DNA from: Rhizomicrobium sp.
GTDB lineage: Bacteria > Pseudomonadota > Alphaproteobacteria > Micropepsales > Micropepsaceae
Length of the DNA: 64,000 bases
Assembly: GCA_050728855.1 (NCBI GenBank)
Contig: JBOHKI010000003.1
Location: 43,894 to 107,893, forward strand
Reading direction: 5' to 3'
Both the position numbers and the translations under genes were made by a program. The number at the start of each line of letters is the position of its first letter. Within the stretch, counting starts at the first letter, position 1. Below, piece after piece: positions 32,717-46,532 of this stretch. The notes under the pieces are model-generated. The model saw nothing but the letters and a program-made list of their open reading frames with translations. It was not told where the DNA came from and ran no database searches.

Positions 32717-34003
32717 TCAGGCGCTGGCGGCGTGGGCGGCGTGCGAATCCGACAATTGCGCGGGAAGCTTGGTGCCGGTCAGGATCGCGCCGCCCAGGTC
32801 GCTGTCGCGCAGATCGCAATCGGCGAGCGTGGCATAGGCGAGATCGCAATCGTTGAACGCGGCGCGGCGCAGATCGGCGCCGCGGAAATCGGCGTAACGC
32901 GCCTGCGCGCCGTCGAGGCGCGCGGGCAGCAGCCGCTGGTCGGAGATCAGGAGCGGCCCGAGCTTGCAATCGCGCAGGTCGGCGTTGTTGAGCTTGGCGC
33001 CGGAAAGGTTGGCGCCGCGCAGATCGGCGCCGGAAAGCTTCGCGCCGCGCAGATCGGCGCCGGCGAAGTTCGAGCCCTGGAGCGACGCGCCCGAAAGATC
33101 GACGCCGTAGAGCACCGCGCCCGGCGCGATCAGCGCCGTGAGCGCGCGATGGGCGAGCGAGGCGATCCCGCGCAGGTCGATGCCGGAAAGATCGGCCGGC
33201 CTGCCCTCTCGCCCGTCGGTATCGGCCCAGCGCGAATGCGAATCCAAAATGTCGGCGATGGGCGCGCCGAGCTCGTCGATGTTGCGCCCGGCCGGCGCCT
33301 CGGTGAGCGCGGTGGCCATGATCGCGCCGTCGAGATTGGCGCGGTTCATCTGGCAGCCCACCAGGATCGCGCCGCTGAAATCCGCGCCCGACAGGTTGCA
33401 GCCCGAAAGGTCCGCGTTCTCGAGATTGGCGCCGGTGAGCTTGGCGTCGCGCAGGTTGGCGCGGGTCAGCCGGCAGCCCTTCATCACGGCGTCGGTGAAG
33501 TCGGCCTGGATCGCCATCGCGCCGGTCATGCGGGCGCGTTCGAGGTTGGCGCTGGTGAGCAGCGCTGCGGGCATTTCGGACGGACCGATATCGTGCTGGA
33601 GCACGCGCAGGTTTCCGAAGCGGTCCTTCTCCGCGATGGTGCCTTCGCGCAGGTCGGCTTCGTAGAGGTCCGCGCCGATCAGGTTGGAGCCGCGCAGGCA
33701 GGCGCCGCGCATGTCGGCGCGCCGCAGGGACGCTCCGGCGAGGTTGGCGCGGCGCAAATCGGTTCCGAAGAAACTCGCCGAATCCAGGCGGCAGCCTTCG
33801 AGGTTGGCTTCCTCCAGCACCGCGCCTGTGAAGTCCGCATCCGCCAGGTTGCGGCCCGACAGATCCAGCCCGGACAGATCGCAAAACGCGAAAACCGCGC
33901 GGGCCCCGCCCATGCGGCCGGCGTACAGCATTTCATGGCGGGCCGCGGCGGCCGCGACCTGCTTCTGGGTGAGCTTGGAGAAGCTGACGCGGCGGTTCAT
34001 CAA
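32717..34003 (-). CDS. Pentapeptide repeat protein
   Basis: Two long blocks of A(D/N)L(S/R)G(A/C) repeats split by an H..W...GREG..ADLSG segment. Confidence 0.92.
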   Translation of the reverse strand: MMNRRVSFSKLTQKQVAAAAARHEMLYAGRMGGARAVFAFCDLSGLDLSGRNLADADFTGAVLEEANLEGCRLDSASFFGTDLRRANLAGASLRRADMRGACLRGSNLIGADLYEADLREGTIAEKDRFGNLRVLQHDIGPSEMPAALLTSANLERARMTGAMAIQADFTDAVMKGCRLTRANLRDAKLTGANLENADLSGCNLSGADFSGAILVGCQMNRANLDGAIMATALTEAPAGRNIDELGAPIADILDSHSRWADTDGREGRPADLSGIDLRGIASLAHRALTALIAPGAVLYGVDLSGASLQGSNFAGADLRGAKLSGADLRGANLSGAKLNNADLRDCKLGPLLISDQRLLPARLDGAQARYADFRGADLRRAAFNDCDLAYATLADCDLRDSDLGGAILTGTKLPAQLSDSHAAHAASA

Positions 34004-34234
34004 ATGACCAATGGTTAAATGGCAACTGTTCCGGCGGTCATTCTGAGGCGAGGGGCGCTAATAGGTCATTAAAAAACAAAAAAGCGAGGGATTAAGGGCT
34101 GTTAGGGGCTGGCATACACGTGCGAATTTTGGTTATGTGCCGCCGAATTGGGCGCTGGGGTGTCTCCCTTCAGGACGCAGGCCGGACTCTGTCCGTCCGC
34201 TCCTTCCACCGGCCCGCGAAGCAAGAGGTCTCAC

Positions 34235-37200
34235 GTGTACAAACGCGCGTTGCTGCTCACGGCCGCCACAGTCGCCCTCATGTCCGGCCCGGCCATGGCC
34301 GCGACCGACAATACCGACATCAAGACGAAAGTGACCACGCCCGTGGACACGGCCACGGCCGCGAGCGGCGCGCCCGGCAACATCCTGATCGACACCAACG
34401 GTTCGGTGGTCGTGCAGTCCACCACGGCCGCGGTGACGATCGATTCGAGCAATATTGTCACCAACAAGGCCTCGATCAGCAACACCGGCACCACCGGCGC
34501 GCTCGGCGTCCAGCTGGACACCGGCTTCACCGGCGCGTTCGACAGCACCGGCGCGATCGACATGTCGGGCTCCGGCCTGAACAAGATCGGCATCGAGATC
34601 AGCAACGGCACTGGCGGCAGCTCCGAGGTCTTCACCGGCACCTCGGCGCTCCCGAGCCCGAACCTCGCCGTGACGAATCCCGTCGCGATCTATCTCGAGG
34701 CCGGCTCGACGTTGAACCTCGCCGGAGACGACGGCACCGGCATTCTGGTGAACCCCTCGGCAATCGTCGAGGGAGACATCACGATCAACGGCACGCTGAC
34801 GCTCGAGGCCACCACCGCGACGGCCACGACCGGCGGCGCCAGCGTCGGCGTCAACCTGGAAGGCACGCTCGCCCAGAACCCGACGACGCTGGTCAACAGC
34901 AACTTCACCGTCGGGACCTCGGGCGTGATCAGCGTCACCGGCGCGAACGCGCAAGGCGTCAACGTCTCCGGCGCCATCAGCGGCTATTTCGCCAATCTCG
35001 GCGACATCCAGGCGCTGGGCACGGTCACGCCGGCCGCCACGACGTCCAGCACGAAAAACCCGGAAGCGGGCAGCGCGATCACGATCTCCAATTCGATCGG
35101 CGGCGGTTTCTACAATGGCGGCTCCAGCACCGACACCACCGGGCGCGCCAGCATCGCCGAATCGGGCGAGTCGCCGGCCCTCGATTTTCTGATCACGGCC
35201 GGGAACACGTCCGACATGCACATCGGCGCGGTGACGGATGCGACGCTGCTCCAGGCCGATGCCAACGCCACCGGCTTCGGCATCATCAATCGCGGCAGCA
35301 TCGGCGCGATTTCGCTGGGCCCGAACATCAGCGTCACCGGCCTCCAGCTCAACGGATCGAACGGCTACGCGATCAACGTGGATGGCGGCATTTTCAACGC
35401 CGGCACCATCACGGCGACCACCACGACGGACGTGAACCCCATCGGCTCCGGCGTCGCGGCGCAGGGCATCGTCATCGGCACGAACGTGACGGTGCCGCGA
35501 ATCGTCAACTCCAACGAGGAGAACACGGCCTCGTCGGCGGCGAGCAGCATCATCAGCGCCCAGATTTCGGGCTCCACCCCCGGCATCGCCACCGCGATCG
35601 ACATCCTGCAGGACGCCACCGTCAACGAAATCGACAACCAGGGCACAATCAGCGCCAGCGCCACCACCACCGATGCCACGATCGCAAATCTCTCGGCATT
35701 CGCCATCCGCGATCAAACCTCCGGCGGCACGCTGCAGACGATCACCAACAGCGGCAACATCGGCGCCGTTGTCTCGACGCTGAACAACGGCCTTCAGGTC
35801 GCCTCCGCCATCGACCTGCTGGATTCCACGCAGAACGTCACCATCACCAACAGTGGAATGATTTCGGGCTCGATCCTGCTCGGCACCGGCAACGATACGA
35901 TCACCGACGAGGGCGCGACGCCCAACACCATCGCCTCGATGAACGGCGATTTGAATTTCGGCGGCGGGCACGATTCGCTCCAGATCGGCCAGCAGGGCAA
36001 CGCCAGCCATCCGGGCGTGTTCACCGGCGCCATCCAGGAGACCGCGGGCGGCACCGTCATGGTCGATATCGGCCCGGGCAGCTCGCTGTTCCTTCAGAAC
36101 GACGGCACCGACACCAACAACGGCCTGAACGTGACCACCAACCTGCCGGTCAGCACGATGACCCTGGAGAACGGCGGCACGCTCGGCCTGACGCTGGCCC
36201 AGGCCTTCAATGTCAACGCCCCGGGTGTCGGCCCGAGCGGCGCCCTTGCCGTCATCCAGTCGACCGGCGCCATCGACATCCACACCGCCAGCGCTACGGC
36301 GCAGACGCCGGCCATGACACTGACGTTCGGAAGCTTCATCACCTCGACGACATCCGATCCGTCCCAATTCGTGCTGATGGCGTCGCCGGCGAACATGCTG
36401 ACCATCGACAATGTCGGCGAGATCCAGAACGAGGTCGCCGGCTCCAAGGTCCCGTTCCTCTTCGTCGGCGACATCTGCACCTACAACGTCACAGGCTCGC
36501 TGCTGCCGTGCTCCGGCACCGAGCCGATCAACAACACCGATTCCGAGCTGATCCTGAACCTGACGCCCAAGACCGTCGGCACCAACCCGGACCAGCTGCC
36601 GTTGACCGGCTACGCCGCCAAGATGTTCCCGCTCGCCAACATCGCGCTGGCCAGCGACAACGCGCTGGGCGCGGCGGTGATCTCCGCCGGCTCGGCCAGC
36701 AACATCACCACCACCGCGCAGGGCAACGCGCTCTACCAGAAGATCTACTCGTCCTTCGCGCCGGACGTGACCGGCTCCCAGCGCGCCCTCGCGGTGTCGC
36801 TGACCGACCAGTCGACCGGCCCGGTCGGCGCGCGCCAGCGCGCGCTGCGCATGTATGCCGGCCAGGACGGCGACGCCACGATGTGGGGCCAGGAGTTCAC
36901 CGAGCGCCTCAACGTCGGCACCCAGACCGCGGCCGCGGGCTTCAACGATTCCGGCTTCGGCTTCGCGCTCGGCATCGACGGCGGCTCGCCGGCCGCCGGG
37001 CGTTACGGCGGCGCTTTCACCTTCTACTCCGGCGACACCAGCGAGAAGACGCCGCGCGACACCAAGACGACCTCGGAATGGTACATGCTCACCGGCTATT
37101 CCGACTGGCGCGGCAAGGGCCTGTTCGTCGACAGCCAGCTGACGGTCGGTTACGGCAGCATCGACGGCAAGCGCTACTTCAACTTCGACGAAACCTCGCT

Positions 37201-37771
37201 CAGGCGCATCGCCGAGGGCAAGCGCGCCGCCGCGATCGCGGCCGGCGGCGTCACCGCGGGCGTAGCACTCACCGCCGGCGGCACGGTGATCATGCCGCAG
37301 CTCAGCATCGACGCGCTGACCATGCGCGAGGAGGGCTACACCGAAACCAATGGCGGCGTGACCACCTCGCAGGCCGATGACGGTTTCGATCTCAGGGTCC
37401 GCCAGGAATACAACAATTCGGTGCGCGGCTTCCTCGGCCTCGACATGCGCCAGGATCTCAATTTCGGCGAATTCTTCCTCCAGCCGGAGATCCGCGGCGG
37501 CTACCGCTACGACTTCCTCAACGCGGCGCAGAAGCTGAGCGCGCAGTTCGTCTGCTCCACCGTCGCCGGCAGCGGCTGCGGCGACACCTCGTTCAATATC
37601 ACCGGTCCCGATCCGGCGAAGGCCAATTTCGTGGCCGGCGGCAGCATCGCCGCCACCACGGGCGCCTGGTCCATCGGCCTGAACTACGACTACATCCGCG
37701 GCATCGGCAACGGCGGCGGCCACGACAGCGTCACCCAGGCCGGCACCATCACCCTGATCGGGCGGATATGA
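34235..37771 (+). CDS. Autotransporter (type Va) with Thr/Ser/Gly/Asn-rich beta-helix passenger
   Basis: GAGGT RBS plus GTG; signal peptide; C-terminal barrel-like region (MWGQEF, GFGFALGIDG, YGGAFTFYSG, LQPEIRGGYRYDF, WSIGLNYDY). Confidence 0.85.
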   Translation: MYKRALLLTAATVALMSGPAMAATDNTDIKTKVTTPVDTATAASGAPGNILIDTNGSVVVQSTTAAVTIDSSNIVTNKASISNTGTTGALGVQLDTGFTGAFDSTGAIDMSGSGLNKIGIEISNGTGGSSEVFTGTSALPSPNLAVTNPVAIYLEAGSTLNLAGDDGTGILVNPSAIVEGDITINGTLTLEATTATATTGGASVGVNLEGTLAQNPTTLVNSNFTVGTSGVISVTGANAQGVNVSGAISGYFANLGDIQALGTVTPAATTSSTKNPEAGSAITISNSIGGGFYNGGSSTDTTGRASIAESGESPALDFLITAGNTSDMHIGAVTDATLLQADANATGFGIINRGSIGAISLGPNISVTGLQLNGSNGYAINVDGGIFNAGTITATTTTDVNPIGSGVAAQGIVIGTNVTVPRIVNSNEENTASSAASSIISAQISGSTPGIATAIDILQDATVNEIDNQGTISASATTTDATIANLSAFAIRDQTSGGTLQTITNSGNIGAVVSTLNNGLQVASAIDLLDSTQNVTITNSGMISGSILLGTGNDTITDEGATPNTIASMNGDLNFGGGHDSLQIGQQGNASHPGVFTGAIQETAGGTVMVDIGPGSSLFLQNDGTDTNNGLNVTTNLPVSTMTLENGGTLGLTLAQAFNVNAPGVGPSGALAVIQSTGAIDIHTASATAQTPAMTLTFGSFITSTTSDPSQFVLMASPANMLTIDNVGEIQNEVAGSKVPFLFVGDICTYNVTGSLLPCSGTEPINNTDSELILNLTPKTVGTNPDQLPLTGYAAKMFPLANIALASDNALGAAVISAGSASNITTTAQGNALYQKIYSSFAPDVTGSQRALAVSLTDQSTGPVGARQRALRMYAGQDGDATMWGQEFTERLNVGTQTAAAGFNDSGFGFALGIDGGSPAAGRYGGAFTFYSGDTSEKTPRDTKTTSEWYMLTGYSDWRGKGLFVDSQLTVGYGSIDGKRYFNFDETSLRRIAEGKRAAAIAAGGVTAGVALTAGGTVIMPQLSIDALTMREEGYTETNGGVTTSQADDGFDLRVRQEYNNSVRGFLGLDMRQDLNFGEFFLQPEIRGGYRYDFLNAAQKLSAQFVCSTVAGSGCGDTSFNITGPDPAKANFVAGGSIAATTGAWSIGLNYDYIRGIGNGGGHDSVTQAGTITLIGRI

Positions 37772-44137: not shown

Positions 44138-44623
44138 ATGGAACTTTCCCCACCACGGCGCGACATGACCCGCCTTGCGCGGCTGCGGCTGGCGCTGATC
44201 CTGGCCGCAAAGGCGCTGCGCACGCCGGTCGCGTTCGGGGCCAGCGCCGTGGTGGAAGACGGCGGCGGCCGCGTGCTGCTGGTGCGCCATTCCTACATGA
44301 GCGGCTGGCACTTCCCCGGCGGCGGGGTGGACGCGGGCGAGCCGCCCGCCCAGGCCGTCATCCGCGAGCTGCGGGAGGAAGTCGGGCTGGTGACCAGCGC
44401 CCCGCCGGAATTCCTCGGCCTGTTCACCCGCCGGGTGGGCTGGGCCACCAACGTCATCGTCCTCTACCGCGTGCGCGACGCCGTGCTCGCCTTCAAGCCC
44501 AATCTGGAGATCCGCGAAATCCTCTTCGCCGATCCCAAGGCCCCGCCCGACGGCGCCACCGCCGGCGTCTGCCGCCGCCTGCGCGAACTCTCCACCGCAA
44601 CCCCCCACCCGCCGCAGTGGTGA
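44138..44623 (+). CDS. NUDIX hydrolase
   Basis: Nudix box GGGVDAGEPPAQAVIRELREEVG. Confidence 0.88.
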   Translation: MELSPPRRDMTRLARLRLALILAAKALRTPVAFGASAVVEDGGGRVLLVRHSYMSGWHFPGGGVDAGEPPAQAVIRELREEVGLVTSAPPEFLGLFTRRVGWATNVIVLYRVRDAVLAFKPNLEIREILFADPKAPPDGATAGVCRRLRELSTATPHPPQW

Positions 44624-44671
44624 GAAACGTACATCTCCCTCACCCCCGCGGGTGCGGGGGAGCCCTGAAGA

Positions 44672-44814
44672 CAACCTCCCCCTTGCGGGGAGGTCGAAAA
44701 ATGCCCTTCGCATTTTTCGGGTGGGGGGCCGAGCCGCGCTTTCGCCACCGTGCCCCCCACCCAAAAATTCTCGCCGTGCTCGAATTTTTCGACCTCCCCG
44801 CAAGGGGGAGGTTG
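44672..44814. repeat. Palindromic element, AACCTCCCCCTTGCGGGGAGGTCG family, copy 1
   Basis: Perfect 31-bp inverted arms 44672-44702 / 44784-44814 with internal hairpins. Confidence 0.88.
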
Positions 44815-44891
44815 ATTATGGCGCTAAATCAGGGAGATAGGGTTCGGCCGAAGGGCGCATGGGCTGCCACAAACTTTCCTGTTCGCACCCC

Positions 44892-44920
44892 TTGTGTTCT
44901 ACTTTAGGGTGTACTATATC
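44892..44920 (+). promoter_or_regulatory. Putative sigma70 promoter for the candidate ncRNA
   Basis: TTGTGT-N17-TATATC in an AT-rich patch; no ORF follows. Confidence 0.5.
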
Positions 44921-44949
44921 TCCTGCCGAGGACACGCAGGAGTTTCATT

Positions 44950-45174
44950 GGGTGACGTAGCCACAGCGCAAGACCAGACAGGCAAGGGCGCACACTTGCG
45001 TGCAGCCCGCGCCGGTTGGAGATGACGGGCATGCGTGCGCCCCACCCGACGGGGATTTTTGGGCGCAGGGCCAGCGGTCTCTCTCCGGCATGCAAGCCGT
45101 GGAGATACCCATCGGGTGAACGAGCGGAAGGGTTCGAATCCTCCACGCCGCCGGCCCGCTGGCGATCACCCCCA
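44950..45174 (+). ncRNA. Candidate structured ncRNA with tRNA-like features, unassigned
   Basis: 5' GGGTGA pairs with 3' TCACCC, followed by CCA; T-loop GGTTCGAATCC at 45131-45141; at least five internal hairpins; upstream promoter and downstream hairpin. Confidence 0.6.
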
Positions 45175-45205
45175 GCCCTGGCCATCGCGATGGTCCAGGG
45201 CTTTG
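45175..45205 (+). terminator. Hairpin immediately after the CCA end (terminator or processing trailer)
   Basis: GCCCTGG-CCATCG/CGATGG-T-CCAGGGC followed by TTT. Confidence 0.55.
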
Positions 45206-45229
45206 GCGTGTATGGGGCGCGCCTCTGCT

Positions 45230-45374
45230 CAACCTCCCCCTTGCGGGGGTTGGTAGCGACAGCGTGCCAACGAAAAATGCCCTTCGCATTTTTCGGGTGG
45301 GGGAACGCGCTGGCGGAGAGAACCCCCGCCCGAAATCGCGTTGCGCGATTTCGACCTCCCCGTAAGGGGGAGGT
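45230..45374. repeat. Palindromic element, AACCTCCCCCTTGCGGGG family, copy 2, with inserted mini-hairpin
   Basis: Shares the identical 33-mer CGAAAAATGCCCTTCGCATTTTTCGGGTGGGGG with copy 1 in the same orientation. Confidence 0.85.
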
Positions 45375-45411
45375 GGGAGAGGGTGGCTCACTTCTCCGCG
45401 TACGGATTTAT

Positions 45412-45605
45412 TCGCGGTGTGGAGGGGGACGGCAGTGGTGAAGAGACGCGCTCTGCTTTCGCCCGCAATCTCACCCCCTCCGTCTCGCACGACTGTCGTC
45501 GTGCGATCCACCTCCCCCTGCCTACGCAAAGGCTTCGGCAGGCGAGTGAGCGCACACCCGGCCACCGGAGCTTCAGCGCAGGTGGCCGCTCTCGCGGGGG
45601 AGGAA
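45412..45605. repeat. Degenerate CCTCCCCC-GCTCTCGC-GGGGGAGG family element with a 69-nt nested insert
   Basis: Same arm as 40274-40423 but interrupted between CCTCCCCC (45511-45518) and GCTCTCGCGGGGGAGG (45588-45603). Confidence 0.7.
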
Positions 45606-45641
45606 GCCGGGAAGGGGAGGTGGGAAGGGCGCACGAGCGCC

Positions 45642-46532
45642 CTACGGTCCATCCACCGAATATCCCGCCTTGCGCAGCAGCGCGGGGACGCCGGAGGGGC
45701 CGGCGAGGTGGGCGGCGCCGACGGTGACGAAGAAGGTGTGGTTCTCGTCCAGCATCGCGCGCAGCCTGGCGACCCAGGCCGCGTTGCGGTCGTCGAGCAG
45801 TGCCTTCTTCACGCCGGGCTCTTTGGCGAGCTCGCCGTTCATCAGCCGGTCGATGGTACGGACGTCGCCATGCGACCAGGCGTCGGTGAGCGCGCCGATC
45901 TCGTCGGGCTGGCGCCGAAGCTGGCGCAGGTCGGCGACGAACTCGCCGATCGCCAGCCGCTCGTCCTTCGGCGCGATCAGCGAAAGCTGCTGGCCCACGG
46001 TCTCGAAGTAACGGACGGGACATCCCCGCGCTGTGGCGATGGCGAAGACCTGGCGGTCGATGCCGGACCCGGGATCGTAATGTTCCTGCTTCATCATCCC
46101 GACCTGCAGGATGAGCGAGGCGAGCCAGGGCTGCTTGTCGTCCAGCGCCTGCGCCGGCACGCCCGCCTTCTCGATCGCGAAGGCGTAGTCGGCCAATGCG
46201 CTTTTCGGCAGCAGGCGCGGTAGCGCTTCGCCCGGCGGCAGCAAGCCGTGCGCCGCCACGAAGGCGGACGCCTCCGCCTGGCCCGCCTTGTCCGTCGGCG
46301 CCTCGAACACGAAGACGCCGGAGGCCGCCATCGCCGCCTCGATCCGCGGCGTGCGCCAGGTGACGTCGGGCGGCAGCAGGTGCAGCGCGCCCAGCAGATA
46401 CACCGTCGCCGTCCCGCCATGCACGGTCCACAGCGCGGGATGCGCCGCGATCGCGCCGTGTGCCGGCTCGGCACGCGCCGGCGCGAGCGCGAAGAACGCG
46501 AGACAGGCGAGCAGAGCGAAGGCGCGCTTCAT
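45642..46532 (-). CDS. TraB/GumN family exported protein
   Basis: Signal peptide; PALWTV..TVYLLGALHLL, FETVGQQL, LLDDRNAAW, FVTVGAAHLAG. Confidence 0.88.
   Translation of the reverse strand: MKRAFALLACLAFFALAPARAEPAHGAIAAHPALWTVHGGTATVYLLGALHLLPPDVTWRTPRIEAAMAASGVFVFEAPTDKAGQAEASAFVAAHGLLPPGEALPRLLPKSALADYAFAIEKAGVPAQALDDKQPWLASLILQVGMMKQEHYDPGSGIDRQVFAIATARGCPVRYFETVGQQLSLIAPKDERLAIGEFVADLRQLRRQPDEIGALTDAWSHGDVRTIDRLMNGELAKEPGVKKALLDDRNAAWVARLRAMLDENHTFFVTVGAAHLAGPSGVPALLRKAGYSVDGP

What the first reader, a model, noticed from the sequence alone, without database searches (positions are those of the whole stretch)
44892..45205. Candidate novel ~225-nt tRNA-mimicking structured RNA with promoter, leader, T-loop and 3' CCA
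Seen, in order: TTGTGT-N17-TATATC; leader hairpin TCCTGC/GCAGGA (44921-44941); a 5' end GGGTGACGTAGCC resembling a tRNA start, with GGGTGA (44950-55) pairing TCACCC (45166-71) followed by CCA (45172-74); the closing helix continuing via GCCA/TGGC and GCG/CGC; hairpins at 44986-45008, 45036-45067, 45082-45105 and 45107-45117; long-range GCCGG/CCGGC (45011-15/45151-55); a TPsiC-type loop G-TTCGAAT-C (45132-45140); and a strong hairpin plus TTT directly after the CCA. No credible ORF is present. It is three times tRNA length and lacks hallmarks of tmRNA, RNase P RNA, SRP RNA and 6S RNA. Known: bacterial Y RNAs (YrlA) combine a terminal helix with a tRNA-like domain but normally lie next to a Ro60/rsr gene, which is absent here. 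Inference: an undescribed tRNA-like RNA, possibly matured by RNase P/RNase Z-type processing.
Basis: partly seen in the sequence, partly recalled or inferred. Interest (0 to 1): 0.85.

Follow-up and report, generated by a model that had tools for sequence, protein, structure and literature searches.

The report
Undescribed multi-copy structured RNA, not tRNA-like
The flagged stretch is a real non-coding RNA gene about 280 bases long, from a family absent from Rfam and from the literature searched and present in up to nine copies per genome in Rhizomicrobium-like soil bacteria; its resemblance to tRNA is a coincidence of this one copy.

Summary
The ones that make it look like tRNA do not hold up. 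The GTTCGAATC 9-mer is expected 0.74 times per window by chance. It sits in the variable loop of a hairpin whose stem covaries in relatives. The "acceptor" helix pairs in about 40% of cells across paralogs, like shifted controls. The CCA is not conserved. ARAGORN and Rfam 15 find nothing.

What is there is a non-coding gene (about 44927-45204, + strand) with its own promoter-like site and a strong terminator. It belongs to a family I recovered at 54 loci (43 unique). Orthologs lie convergent to the same TraB/GumN gene in three relatives. One Rhizomicrobium genome holds 9 paralogs and another holds 6.

Shared features are:
- a Shine-Dalgarno-like site and a 2-3 codon mini-ORF whose stop lies 6 nt before helix P1;
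- two competing, covarying helices (P1 and P2) around an invariant 13-nt loop;
- a variable domain;
- conserved 3' blocks.

Many other copies carry a GTTC-N7-GTTC SOS-type box. The window copy does not.

Function is untested. My best inference is a sibling regulatory RNA gated by ribosomes at its 5' end.

The parts
44892..44897 (+). -35-like hexamer TTGTGT
   Evidence: Read. TTGCGT or TTGTGT sits at the same place, 17 nt before TATATC-like hexamers, in type-C paralogs. Not scored by the consensus scan.
44915..44920 (+). -10-like hexamer TATATC; the transcription start is inferred near 44927 and was not measured
   Evidence: CTATATC, CTATCTC and TTATATG/TTATATC occur in the paralogs L011, L016, L031, L015 and L027. 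An alternative upstream -10 (TACTTT, 44900-05) is homologous to the type-B promoter.
44920..44942 (+). Inverted repeat CUCCUGC/GCAGGAG. It is either a 5' hairpin or an operator spanning the start site. Its 3' arm is the Shine-Dalgarno-like GGAG.
   Evidence: -10.1 kcal/mol, z -2.9. Only 52-57% of cells pair in type-C paralogs. Type-A copies have GUUCUCC/GGAGAAC at the same place.
44952..44960 (+). Mini-ORF GTG ACG TAG, with a Shine-Dalgarno-like GGAG 9 nt upstream
   Evidence: 40 of 43 unique family loci have TAG, TGA or TAA exactly 6 nt before P1. 38 have an in-frame NTG, mostly 2-3 codons upstream, with variable codons between. 35 of those 38 have a Shine-Dalgarno-like tetramer upstream.
44967..45000 (+). 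Helix P1: CGCAAG (44967-72) pairs with CUUGCG (44995-45000)
   Evidence: 100% of cells paired in 41 unique sequences; G:C changes to A:U in 5. It shares G45000 with P2 and leaves no linker before the 3' strand of P2, so the two helices compete.
44973..44985 (+). Near-invariant purine-rich loop ACCAGACAGGCAA (family consensus A[AC]CA[GU]ACAGG[CU]AA)
   Evidence: Alignment A3, invariant columns. Part of it was fixed by the search pattern, but the flanking GCAAGA and the A/C, G/U, C/U-only variation were not.
44986..45008 (+). Hairpin P2: GGGCGCAC / GUGC(A)GCCC.
   Evidence: -12.4 kcal/mol, z -2.6. 95.7-100% paired, with C:G (24), A:U (10) and U:G (2) at the inner pair.
45012..45088 (+).
   Evidence: -38.7 kcal/mol, z -2.2. 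The outer closing helix is 92.9% paired with 3 compensatory pairs in type-C paralogs. The inner helix is GGAUC/GAUCC or GGCGC/GCGCC in relatives. Domain length varies by family member.
45088..45104 (+). Conserved block GCAUGCAAGCCGUGGAG
   Evidence: Conserved in type A (GCAUGCAAACCGGGGAGG) and type C; the CCGUGGAGG part is also kept in type B.
45107..45117 (+). Small hairpin ACCC-AUC-GGGU, inside a roughly 10-nt insertion (AUACCCAUCG) specific to this copy; the conserved GGUGAAC-GAGCG follows it
   Evidence: Type B has CCGUGGAG-GUUGAACCGAGCG without the insert. The helix is only 54% paired in paralogs.
45121..45151 (+). Helices P4 (45121-25 with 45147-51) and P5 (45127-31 with 45140-44). The P5 loop, 45132-39 GUUCGAAU, is the supposed T-loop.
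   Evidence: 90% paired, 3 compensatory pairs, shifted controls 34-59%. The loop sequence differs in every relative. The thermodynamic fold pairs UUCGAA with itself rather than leaving a 7-nt T-loop.
45150..45171 (+). Conserved 3' block GCCGGCC...GGCGAUCACC, homologous to GCCGGCUG..AGCGAGGAAACC of type B
   Evidence: CCGGC is invariant across A4. Compare L009, L010 and L012.
45174..45204 (+). Intrinsic terminator: a 12-bp stem with one bulge, then UUU
   Evidence: -20.4 kcal/mol, z -3.6, 0 of 200 shuffles as good. Nearly identical in L007, L011 and L031. Type A ends in hairpin + CUUUCUUUU.

Best explanation
The window carries one gene (about 44927-45204, + strand, about 280 nt) of a previously undescribed family of stand-alone structured non-coding RNAs. 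The family occurs in Rhizomicrobium-like Alphaproteobacteria (Micropepsaceae).

Shown:
- The gene is non-coding.
- It has a promoter-like site and a strong terminator.
- It is conserved in position next to TraB/GumN.
- It has 6-9 dispersed paralogs in related genomes.
- It shares a covarying architecture with them: a 5' inverted repeat, a Shine-Dalgarno-like site with a 2-3 codon mini-ORF, competing helices P1 and P2 around an invariant purine-rich loop, a variable hairpin domain, conserved 3' blocks with hairpins P4/P5, and a terminator.

Inferred mechanism:
- The RNA acts in trans as a sibling regulatory RNA.
- Its invariant loop and other conserved unpaired blocks are the effector surface, pairing with targets or binding a protein.
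- A ribosome terminating on the mini-ORF, 6 nt from P1, would hold the 5' strand of P1 open and so favour P2.
- Paralogs carry different promoters (a GTTC-N7-GTTC SOS-type box, a TGAC-N5-GTCA operator, or the type-C promoter seen here), so they would feed different signals into one effector.

It is not a tRNA mimic.
For: Non-coding: flat codon-position GC; no conserved ORF of 18 aa or more on either strand.

Homologs in conserved position:
- nhmmer finds it downstream of, and convergent to, TraB/GumN in L007 (E 1e-17), L010 (3e-6) and L009 (5e-6).

Family size:
- The 24-nt core pattern finds 22 true loci in GTDB genomes. Nine are in assembly DATJXR01 and six in DASXFU01.
- It finds 31 more true loci in JGI metagenomes.
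- A covariance model separates true members (56-88 bits; window 76.6 bits, E 4e-18) from chance matches (23 bits or less).
- Paralogs share only promoter plus RNA, at 73-98% identity.

Structure:
- P1 is 100% paired and P2 95.7%, both with compensatory changes and with G:U pairs that fit only the + strand.
- The domain-2 closing helix is 92.9% paired with 3 compensatory pairs.
- P4/P5 are 90% paired with 3 compensatory pairs.
- Terminator z -3.6.

Mini-ORF:
- A stop codon lies 6 nt before P1 in 40 of 43 unique loci (TAG 26, TGA 10, TAA 4; never TGG).
- An in-frame NTG is present in 38, and the codons between vary.
- A Shine-Dalgarno-like tetramer is present in 35 of 38.

Promoter boxes in other copies: GTTC-N7-GTTC in 21 of 43. 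This is the Caulobacter SOS-box consensus as quoted in PMC6237742. TGAC-N5-GTCA occurs at a fixed distance in 15 of 41.

Context: downstream genes differ between copies (HU, tRNA-Gly, a yebC-like gene, or a convergent gene), which argues for an independent unit.
Against: - There are no expression data; both RNA ends are inferred.
- The whole-molecule fold is barely better than shuffles (z -1.65).
- The homolog set was gathered with an exact pattern that fixes GGGCGC and CTTG. The core therefore looks more invariant than it may be, and only 2 of 6 P1 pairs were free to vary.
- The sequences are related, so the shuffle controls overstate significance, and few independent compensatory events are documented.
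- The mini-ORF is missing in 3 paralog lineages (L015/L046, L031/L035, L027/L052). It has CTG starts in one clade and mutated starts in L032 and L042.
- P2 is more stable than P1 (mean -10.0 against -6.0 kcal/mol), so a switch is not demonstrated.
- No target or protein partner is known. A search of the window for sites complementary to the loop gave chance level.
- The window copy lacks both regulatory boxes seen in other copies.
Confidence: 0.75

Rival explanations
1. tRNA-mimicking RNA: a terminal acceptor-like helix with a 3' CCA and a T-arm, matured by RNase P/RNase Z and possibly aminoacylated or bound by tRNA-binding proteins, as in Y RNA or tmRNA.
For: The window sequence contains GGGTGA/TCACCC followed by CCA, and GTTCGAATC in a hairpin loop. 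In three loci a tRNA-Gly gene follows a family member.
Against: - ARAGORN finds 0 genes.
- No tRNA, tmRNA or Y-RNA hit in Rfam, even at E up to 10.
- The 9-mer is at chance level.
- The loop sequence is not conserved.
- The acceptor-like helices are 36-43% paired in paralogs, like shifted controls.
- There is no discriminator base.
- The CCA is not conserved, and its A is part of the terminator stem.
- No TROVE/Ro60 domain was found in the 30 window ORFs scanned.
Confidence: 0.02
2. Cis-acting leader or attenuator: the RNA is a 5' untranslated region whose terminator controls read-through into a downstream gene, with the mini-ORF acting as a leader peptide.
For: It has a Shine-Dalgarno-like site, a mini-ORF, alternative helices and a terminator. 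Ten type-A copies lie about 130-170 nt upstream of an HU gene on the same strand.
Against: - In the window and its orthologs the next gene is convergent (TraB/GumN), so there is nothing to regulate in cis.
- Downstream genes differ between copies: HU, tRNA-Gly, a yebC-like gene, or convergent genes.
- P1/P2 lie about 200 nt from the terminator and do not overlap it.
Confidence: 0.06
3. Dispersed DNA repeat or mobile-element remnant. The conservation would then reflect recent copying or a DNA-level site (recombination or protein binding), not a functional RNA.
For: It is multi-copy with some near-identical copies (L011, L013, L020 and L025 at 97-99%). Palindromic REP/MITE-like elements flank the window copy on both sides and follow L015/L046.
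Against: - Most paralogs are 73-85% identical, with compensatory and G:U-compatible changes in helices. That pattern indicates selection on one RNA strand.
- The conserved unit begins at the promoter and ends at the terminator, with no terminal repeats of its own.
- There is no transposase or integrase nearby.
- The pattern is absent from viral contigs, and the candidate region gave no blastn match in the plasmid or phage collections.
- The position next to TraB/GumN is kept across genomes whose TraB proteins are 58-67% identical to the window's.
Confidence: 0.08
4. SOS-regulated type I toxin mRNA, as in tisB or dinQ: a long folded mRNA family, LexA-controlled, encoding a tiny toxin.
For: GTTC-N7-GTTC boxes occur over the -10 element in 21 of 43 copies. 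The RNA is multi-copy, structured and about 250-390 nt long. It has a short upstream ORF.
Against: - No conserved ORF of 18 aa or more on either strand. The clusters found are Arg/Pro-rich translations of the conserved core in shifting frames.
- Flat codon-position GC.
- The only conserved ORF encodes 2-3 residues of variable identity.
- No antisense promoter or RNA is evident.
Confidence: 0.04

Closest known systems
Sibling (multi-copy) trans-acting bacterial sRNAs, e.g. Qrr1-5, AbcR1/2, CcsR1-4 (from my own knowledge)
   Same: They are stand-alone genes with their own promoter and an intrinsic terminator. Several diverged paralogs per genome share one near-invariant single-stranded stretch, and the paralogs have different promoters.
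   Different: This RNA is much longer (about 250-390 nt) and has several conserved internal loops and a variable domain. It has a conserved mini-ORF. No target, Hfq dependence or regulon is known. There is no sequence or Rfam relationship.
Large structured ncRNAs of unknown function found by comparative genomics (raiA, OLE, ROOL-type; from my own knowledge)
   Same: Many conserved unpaired nucleotides lie between covarying helices. The RNA is not linked to one downstream gene, and its function cannot be read from context.
   Different: No Rfam model of these families matches. This family is multi-copy, as far as the exact-pattern scans show it is confined to Rhizomicrobium and a few unclassified proteobacterial genome assemblies, and it carries a translated-looking mini-ORF.
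Bacterial Y RNA (YrlA), tmRNA and tRNA
   Same: In this one copy, a terminal complementarity, a GTTCGAATC loop and a CCA are present.
   Different: None of the three features is conserved in the family. There is no CM or ARAGORN hit, no Ro60/TROVE gene was found, and there is no tag reading frame.
LexA-regulated type I toxin mRNAs (tisB, dinQ; from my own knowledge)
   Same: An SOS-type box overlaps the -10 in many copies. The RNA is long, folded and multi-copy, with a short upstream ORF.
   Different: There is no toxin ORF. The window copy has no SOS box.
Leader-peptide attenuators and 'start-stop' minimal ORFs (from my own knowledge)
   Same: A Shine-Dalgarno-like site and a very short ORF sit directly upstream of alternative helices, so ribosome position could select the RNA fold.
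   Different: There is no downstream gene in cis in the window. The terminator is about 200 nt away and is not part of the alternative pairing.

Membership tests
tRNA / tRNA-like element | Detected by tRNA gene finders or covariance models | tested here: not met
   ARAGORN finds 0 genes in the window. No RF00005 hit at the gathering score or at E up to 10.
tRNA / tRNA-like element | Conserved T-loop (GTTCRANYC) closed by a 5-bp T-stem | tested here: not met
   The 9-mer is at chance level. The T-stem has only 3 pairs in the window and is 38% paired in paralogs. The loop reads CCUAGCCU, GUUAAACU or UCUAGCCC in relatives.
tRNA / tRNA-like element | Acceptor helix joining the 5' and 3' ends, a discriminator base, and CCA | tested here: not met
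   The helices are 40.5, 35.7 and 42.9% paired in 7 paralogs, against 31-47% for shifted controls. There is no discriminator base. The CCA is not conserved and overlaps the terminator stem.
Bacterial Y RNA (YrlA) | Match to the Rfam Y RNA / YrlA models | tested here: not met
   No hit.
Bacterial Y RNA (YrlA) | Encoded next to an rsr (Ro60/TROVE) gene | tested here: not met
   No TROVE domain in the 30 window ORFs scanned. These include all flanking genes and the 10 largest ORFs. Smaller ORFs far from the locus were not scanned.
tmRNA (one- or two-piece) | Detected by ARAGORN or Rfam; tag reading frame ending in a hydrophobic tail | tested here: not met
   No conserved ORF beyond 2-3 codons.
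New family (this report): Micropepsaceae multi-copy RNA | Core CGCAAG-A[AC]CA[GU]ACAGG[CU]AA-GGGCGCN-..CUUGCG-NGC(N)GCCC with helices P1 and P2 | tested here: met
   Exact match at 44967-45008 with 0 expected by chance. 76.6 bits, E 4e-18 against model R1; note that the window was one of the 41 training sequences. Independent nhmmer hits to L007, L009 and L010.
New family (this report): Micropepsaceae multi-copy RNA | Mini-ORF (NTG, 1-2 codons, stop) ending 6 nt before P1, with a Shine-Dalgarno-like site upstream | tested here: met
   GTG ACG TAG at 44952-60, with GGAG at 44939-42.
New family (this report): Micropepsaceae multi-copy RNA | Conserved 3' blocks (GCAUGNAARCCGKGGAG; GCCGGC...GCGA..ACC), hairpins P4/P5, and an intrinsic terminator | tested here: met
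New family (this report): Micropepsaceae multi-copy RNA | Transcribed as a discrete RNA | not testable with these tools
   No transcriptome data are available for this organism.
LexA (SOS) regulon of Alphaproteobacteria | GTTC-N7-GTTC box at the promoter (consensus as quoted in PMC6237742) | tested here: not met
   The window has GTTC-TACTTTA-GGGT, a half-site only. 21 of 43 other family copies have the full box. LexA binding itself was not tested.
Type I toxin-antitoxin mRNA | Conserved small (about 20-60 aa) hydrophobic ORF | tested here: not met

The most novel reading that the evidence does not exclude
This is a new class of ribosome-gated structured RNA. A translated 2-3 codon 'start-stop'-type ORF ends 6 nt before a pair of competing helices, so it would set the fold of a roughly 300-nt RNA according to translation status. 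The class has expanded into 6-9 sibling genes per genome. These are wired to different promoters, including LexA/SOS-type ones, and act through an invariant purine-rich loop on a still unknown protein or RNA partner.
Probability: 0.3. Interest if true: 0.8.

Novelty: new variant of a known kind. Interest (0 to 1): 0.6.

Why it matters
A conserved, multi-copy structured RNA family missing from Rfam 15 and from the literature searched adds a new entry to the short list of large bacterial ncRNAs of unknown function. It comes from an uncultivated-dominated soil lineage (Micropepsaceae).

Three features make it experimentally tractable:
- a mini-ORF placed 6 nt before competing helices;
- SOS-type boxes on half of the copies;
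- sibling genes with different promoters.

The case also shows that single-sequence tRNA-like hallmarks (a T-loop 9-mer, a CCA, terminal complementarity) can be pure coincidence in GC-rich intergenic DNA.

Tried and rejected
- **Rfam.** Gathering-score scan of the whole window, and E up to 10 on 44500-45600. E up to 1 on nine homologous loci of all three types. No family covers the RNA. Sub-threshold whalefall-1 hits fall only on the flanking repeats.
- **ARAGORN.** Nothing.
- **blastn against plasmids and phages, and a pattern scan of viral contigs.** Nothing.
- **Synteny through the NUDIX side.** In three relatives NUDIX is followed directly by an adh_short gene and no RNA. The TraB/GumN side worked instead.
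- **Coding potential.** Codon-position GC. Six-frame small-ORF clustering across 53 loci found no conserved peptide.
- **Targets.** Sites in the window complementary to the invariant loop are at chance level.
- **Extra copies.** None in the window, and no diverged copies in 542 kb of fetched loci.
- **Recurrent neighbour genes.** None apart from HU next to type-A copies.
- **Structure-aware alignment.** MAFFT Q-INS-i was not installed. A plain MAFFT alignment of the 3' domain across all types gave no RNAalifold consensus, so helices were tested on subtype alignments.
- **H-type pseudoknot of P1 plus P2.** Judged sterically unlikely because there is no linker between the 3' strand of P1 and the 3' strand of P2. 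I treat the two as alternatives.
- **Long-range pairing.** ACAGACAGG with CCUGCUGU in type A is possible (8 bp with one bulge), but both sides are invariant, so it is untestable. It is absent in the window type.
- **Literature.** Four searches found no description.
Full report
**Setting.** The window comes from a Rhizomicrobium-like alphaproteobacterium (Micropepsaceae). The best named relatives of two flanking proteins are 'Rhizomicrobium sp.' metagenome-assembled genomes. The finding lies in a 1-kb gap between two convergent genes. One is a NUDIX hydrolase gene (44138-44623, +). The other is a TraB/GumN-family gene (about 45642-46502, -, with a signal peptide). The gap contains two copies of a palindromic element of about 145 nt (44672-44814 and 45229-45376) on either side of a unique 415-nt core that holds the candidate. 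Downstream genes are ordinary chromosomal ones: amidohydrolases, EIIA-Man, a ChvG/ChvI-like two-component pair, GreA and CarB. No integrase or transposase is present.

**Observation check.**
- The leader inverted repeat, the 44986-45008 hairpin, the 45012-45088 domain and the terminator each fold better than shuffles, with z from -2.2 to -3.6.
- The region shows no codon-position GC signal.
- The tRNA-like elements are weak. GTTCGAATC is expected 0.74 times per window by chance. The 225-nt 'mature' RNA has z = -1.65.
- ARAGORN finds nothing. Rfam 15 reports nothing on the candidate even at E up to 10.

**Finding relatives.**
- In three relatives with about 80% identical NUDIX proteins, NUDIX is followed directly by an adh_short gene and no RNA.
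- On the other side the order ChvI, ChvG, EIIA, HPr, amidohydrolases, TraB/GumN is conserved. nhmmer finds the candidate just downstream of, and convergent to, TraB/GumN in L007 (E 1e-17; the contig ends inside the RNA), L010 and L009.
- From their alignment I took the core CANACAGGNAAGGGCGCNNNCTTG and scanned two collections. GTDB genomes gave 24 loci, of which 22 are real. JGI metagenomes gave 32 loci, of which 31 are real.
- A covariance model of the core scores all real members at 56-88 bits. The three chance matches score 23 bits or less, or do not match at all.
- One assembly (DATJXR01, Rhizomicrobium SMAG_U15131) has nine copies on nine contigs. Another (DASXFU01) has six.
- Paralogs are 73-98% identical, and the similarity covers only promoter plus RNA.
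- Viral contigs, plasmids and phages gave nothing. The window holds a single copy.

**Family anatomy.**
1. A sigma-70-like promoter. In 'type A' copies the -10 is embedded in GTTC-N7-GTTC (21 of 43 unique loci). This is the alphaproteobacterial SOS-box consensus as quoted in PMC6237742. Fifteen of 41 copies also carry TGAC-N5-GTCA at a fixed distance upstream. The window's 'type C' promoter (TTGTGT-N17-TATATC) has neither, but it is itself conserved among type-C paralogs.
2. An inverted repeat at the start site. Its 3' arm is a Shine-Dalgarno-like GGAG.
3. A mini-ORF. It consists of NTG (ATG 19, TTG 10, CTG 6, GTG 3), one or two variable codons in most copies, and a stop codon. The stop is TAG (26), TGA (10) or TAA (4), never TGG, and it always lies 6 nt before P1. 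A stop is present in 40 of 43 loci, with an in-frame start in 38 and a Shine-Dalgarno-like tetramer in 35 of those 38.
4. Helices P1 (CGCAAG/CUUGCG) and P2 (GGGCGCN/NGC(N)GCCC) flank the near-invariant loop A[AC]CA[GU]ACAGG[CU]AA. P1 is 100% paired and P2 95.7% paired in 41 unique sequences. Both show compensatory changes (G:C to A:U; C:G to A:U or U:G) and G:U pairs that fit only the + strand. Shifted controls pair at 31-47%. The 3' strand of P1 lies in the loop of P2 with no linker to the 3' strand of P2, and in the window the two share G45000. I therefore read them as competing helices, with P2 the more stable (mean -10.0 against -6.0 kcal/mol).
5. A hairpin domain of variable length whose closing helix covaries (92.9% paired, three compensatory pairs).
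6. Conserved blocks (GCAUGCAARCCGKGGAG, GGUUGAAsCGA, GCCGGC..AGCGA..ACC) and hairpins P4/P5 (90% paired, three compensatory pairs).
7. An intrinsic terminator.

- The three 'acceptor' helices pair in 40.5, 35.7 and 42.9% of cells, no better than shifted controls.
- The GCCGG/CCGGC long-range helix has three of its five pairs broken in most sequences.
- The T-arm pairs in 38% of cells.
- The hairpin that carries GUUCGAAU is family hairpin P5. Its stem covaries: GACGG/CCGUC, GAUGG/CCAUC, UGGC/GCCA, GCGUCC/GGGCGC. Its loop differs in each relative.
- In the window the fold program prefers to pair UUCGAA with itself.
- The CCA reads AUCCAG, CCAAAG or ACCGAG in relatives, and its A is the first base of the terminator stem.
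- No TROVE/Ro60 domain was found in the 30 window ORFs scanned.
- The tRNA-mimic reading is therefore rejected.

**What it is not.**
- It is not a protein gene or a type I toxin mRNA. No ORF of 18 aa or more is conserved on either strand.
- It is not a cis leader in the window, because the next gene is convergent. Other copies are followed by HU (ten loci), tRNA-Gly, a yebC-like gene or convergent genes.
- It is unlikely to be a mere DNA repeat. The helices show strand-specific compensatory change, the unit has no terminal repeats of its own, and the TraB-adjacent position is kept across genomes whose TraB proteins are only 58-67% identical to the window's.

**Most likely mechanism (inference).** It is a stand-alone regulatory or scaffold RNA. 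Its invariant loop and the other conserved unpaired blocks form the effector surface.
- The fixed 6-nt spacing between the mini-ORF stop and P1 means that a terminating ribosome would cover the 5' strand of P1. Translation of the mini-ORF would then bias the P1/P2 choice.
- The Shine-Dalgarno-like site is itself in the 5' inverted repeat.
- Sibling copies with different promoters (SOS-type box, TGAC-N5-GTCA operator, type C) would couple different signals to the same effector.

None of this is tested. There are no expression data, no partner is known, and the homolog set is biased by the exact search pattern.

**Novelty.** No Rfam 15 family matches any of the three subtypes, and four literature searches found no description. 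I rate it a new family of a known general kind (a stand-alone bacterial structured sRNA) with unusual traits: a conserved mini-ORF next to competing helices, up to nine siblings, and SOS-type boxes. Interest is moderate to high. As far as the exact-pattern scans show, its phylogenetic range is narrow.

Noticed in passing
window 44672-44814 and 45229-45376: Two copies of a palindromic REP/MITE-like element of about 145 nt flank the RNA gene. Each is built from hairpins ACCTCCCC-N5-GGGGAGGT and CGAAAAATGC..GCATTTTTCG. They give sub-threshold whalefall-1 (RF01762) hits of 33.4 and 24.7 bits against a gathering score of 37. These are the only copies in the 64-kb window. The same hairpin recurs in related genomes (L015/L046 next to the RNA, also L018 and L052).
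   Followed up: partly
window 44623-45642 compared with L001-L006: Gene order breaks exactly at the RNA locus. In three relatives NUDIX is followed at once by adh_short and an acetyltransferase. In the window it is followed by repeats, the RNA, and the TraB/GumN - amidohydrolase - EIIA-Man - ChvG/ChvI block.
   Followed up: partly
L022, L023, L028, L032, L034, L039, L041, L042, L047, L063: Type-A family copies sit about 130-170 nt upstream of an HU (hupB-like) gene on the same strand, with a conserved spacer (TTACTCCCCGAAATCCTAGGAAATC...). It is unknown whether the RNA and HU are functionally linked.
   Followed up: partly
L045, L049, L059; L050 (=L017), L054, L064: Other type-A copies are followed within about 60-120 nt by a tRNA-Gly(CCC)-like gene, or by a yebC-like ORF (MAGHSQFKNIMHRKG...). 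Both were read from the sequence and not run through a gene finder.
   Followed up: no
promoters of L012, L014, L017, L023, L026, L028, L042, L045, L047, L049, L053, L055, L059, L064, L066: A conserved palindrome TGAC-N5-GTCA lies at a fixed distance (104-124 nt, mostly 116-124) upstream of the RNA core, followed by an A/T-rich TTCC stretch. This is probably an operator for an unidentified transcription factor. It is absent from the window copy.
   Followed up: partly
L009 4929-5052 and 5578-8067: In the ortholog locus of assembly DASXFU01, a different 124-nt perfect-armed palindrome lies between TraB/GumN and the RNA. The gene divergent from the RNA encodes a TIR / NB-ARC / TPR protein, which is defence-like.
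   Followed up: no
window 32717-37771: A pentapeptide-repeat protein of 428 aa (9 matched stretches to the Pfam Pentapeptide family) lies next to a 1207-aa autotransporter whose codon-position GC is unusual (0.55/0.53/0.92).
   Followed up: no
type-A RNAs, e.g. L034, L039: The invariant loop ACAGACAGG could pair with the conserved 3' block CCUGCUGU (8 bp with one bulged A), which would close the RNA into a large pseudoknot. Both sides are invariant, so covariation cannot test it, and the pairing is not available in the window's subtype.
   Followed up: partly
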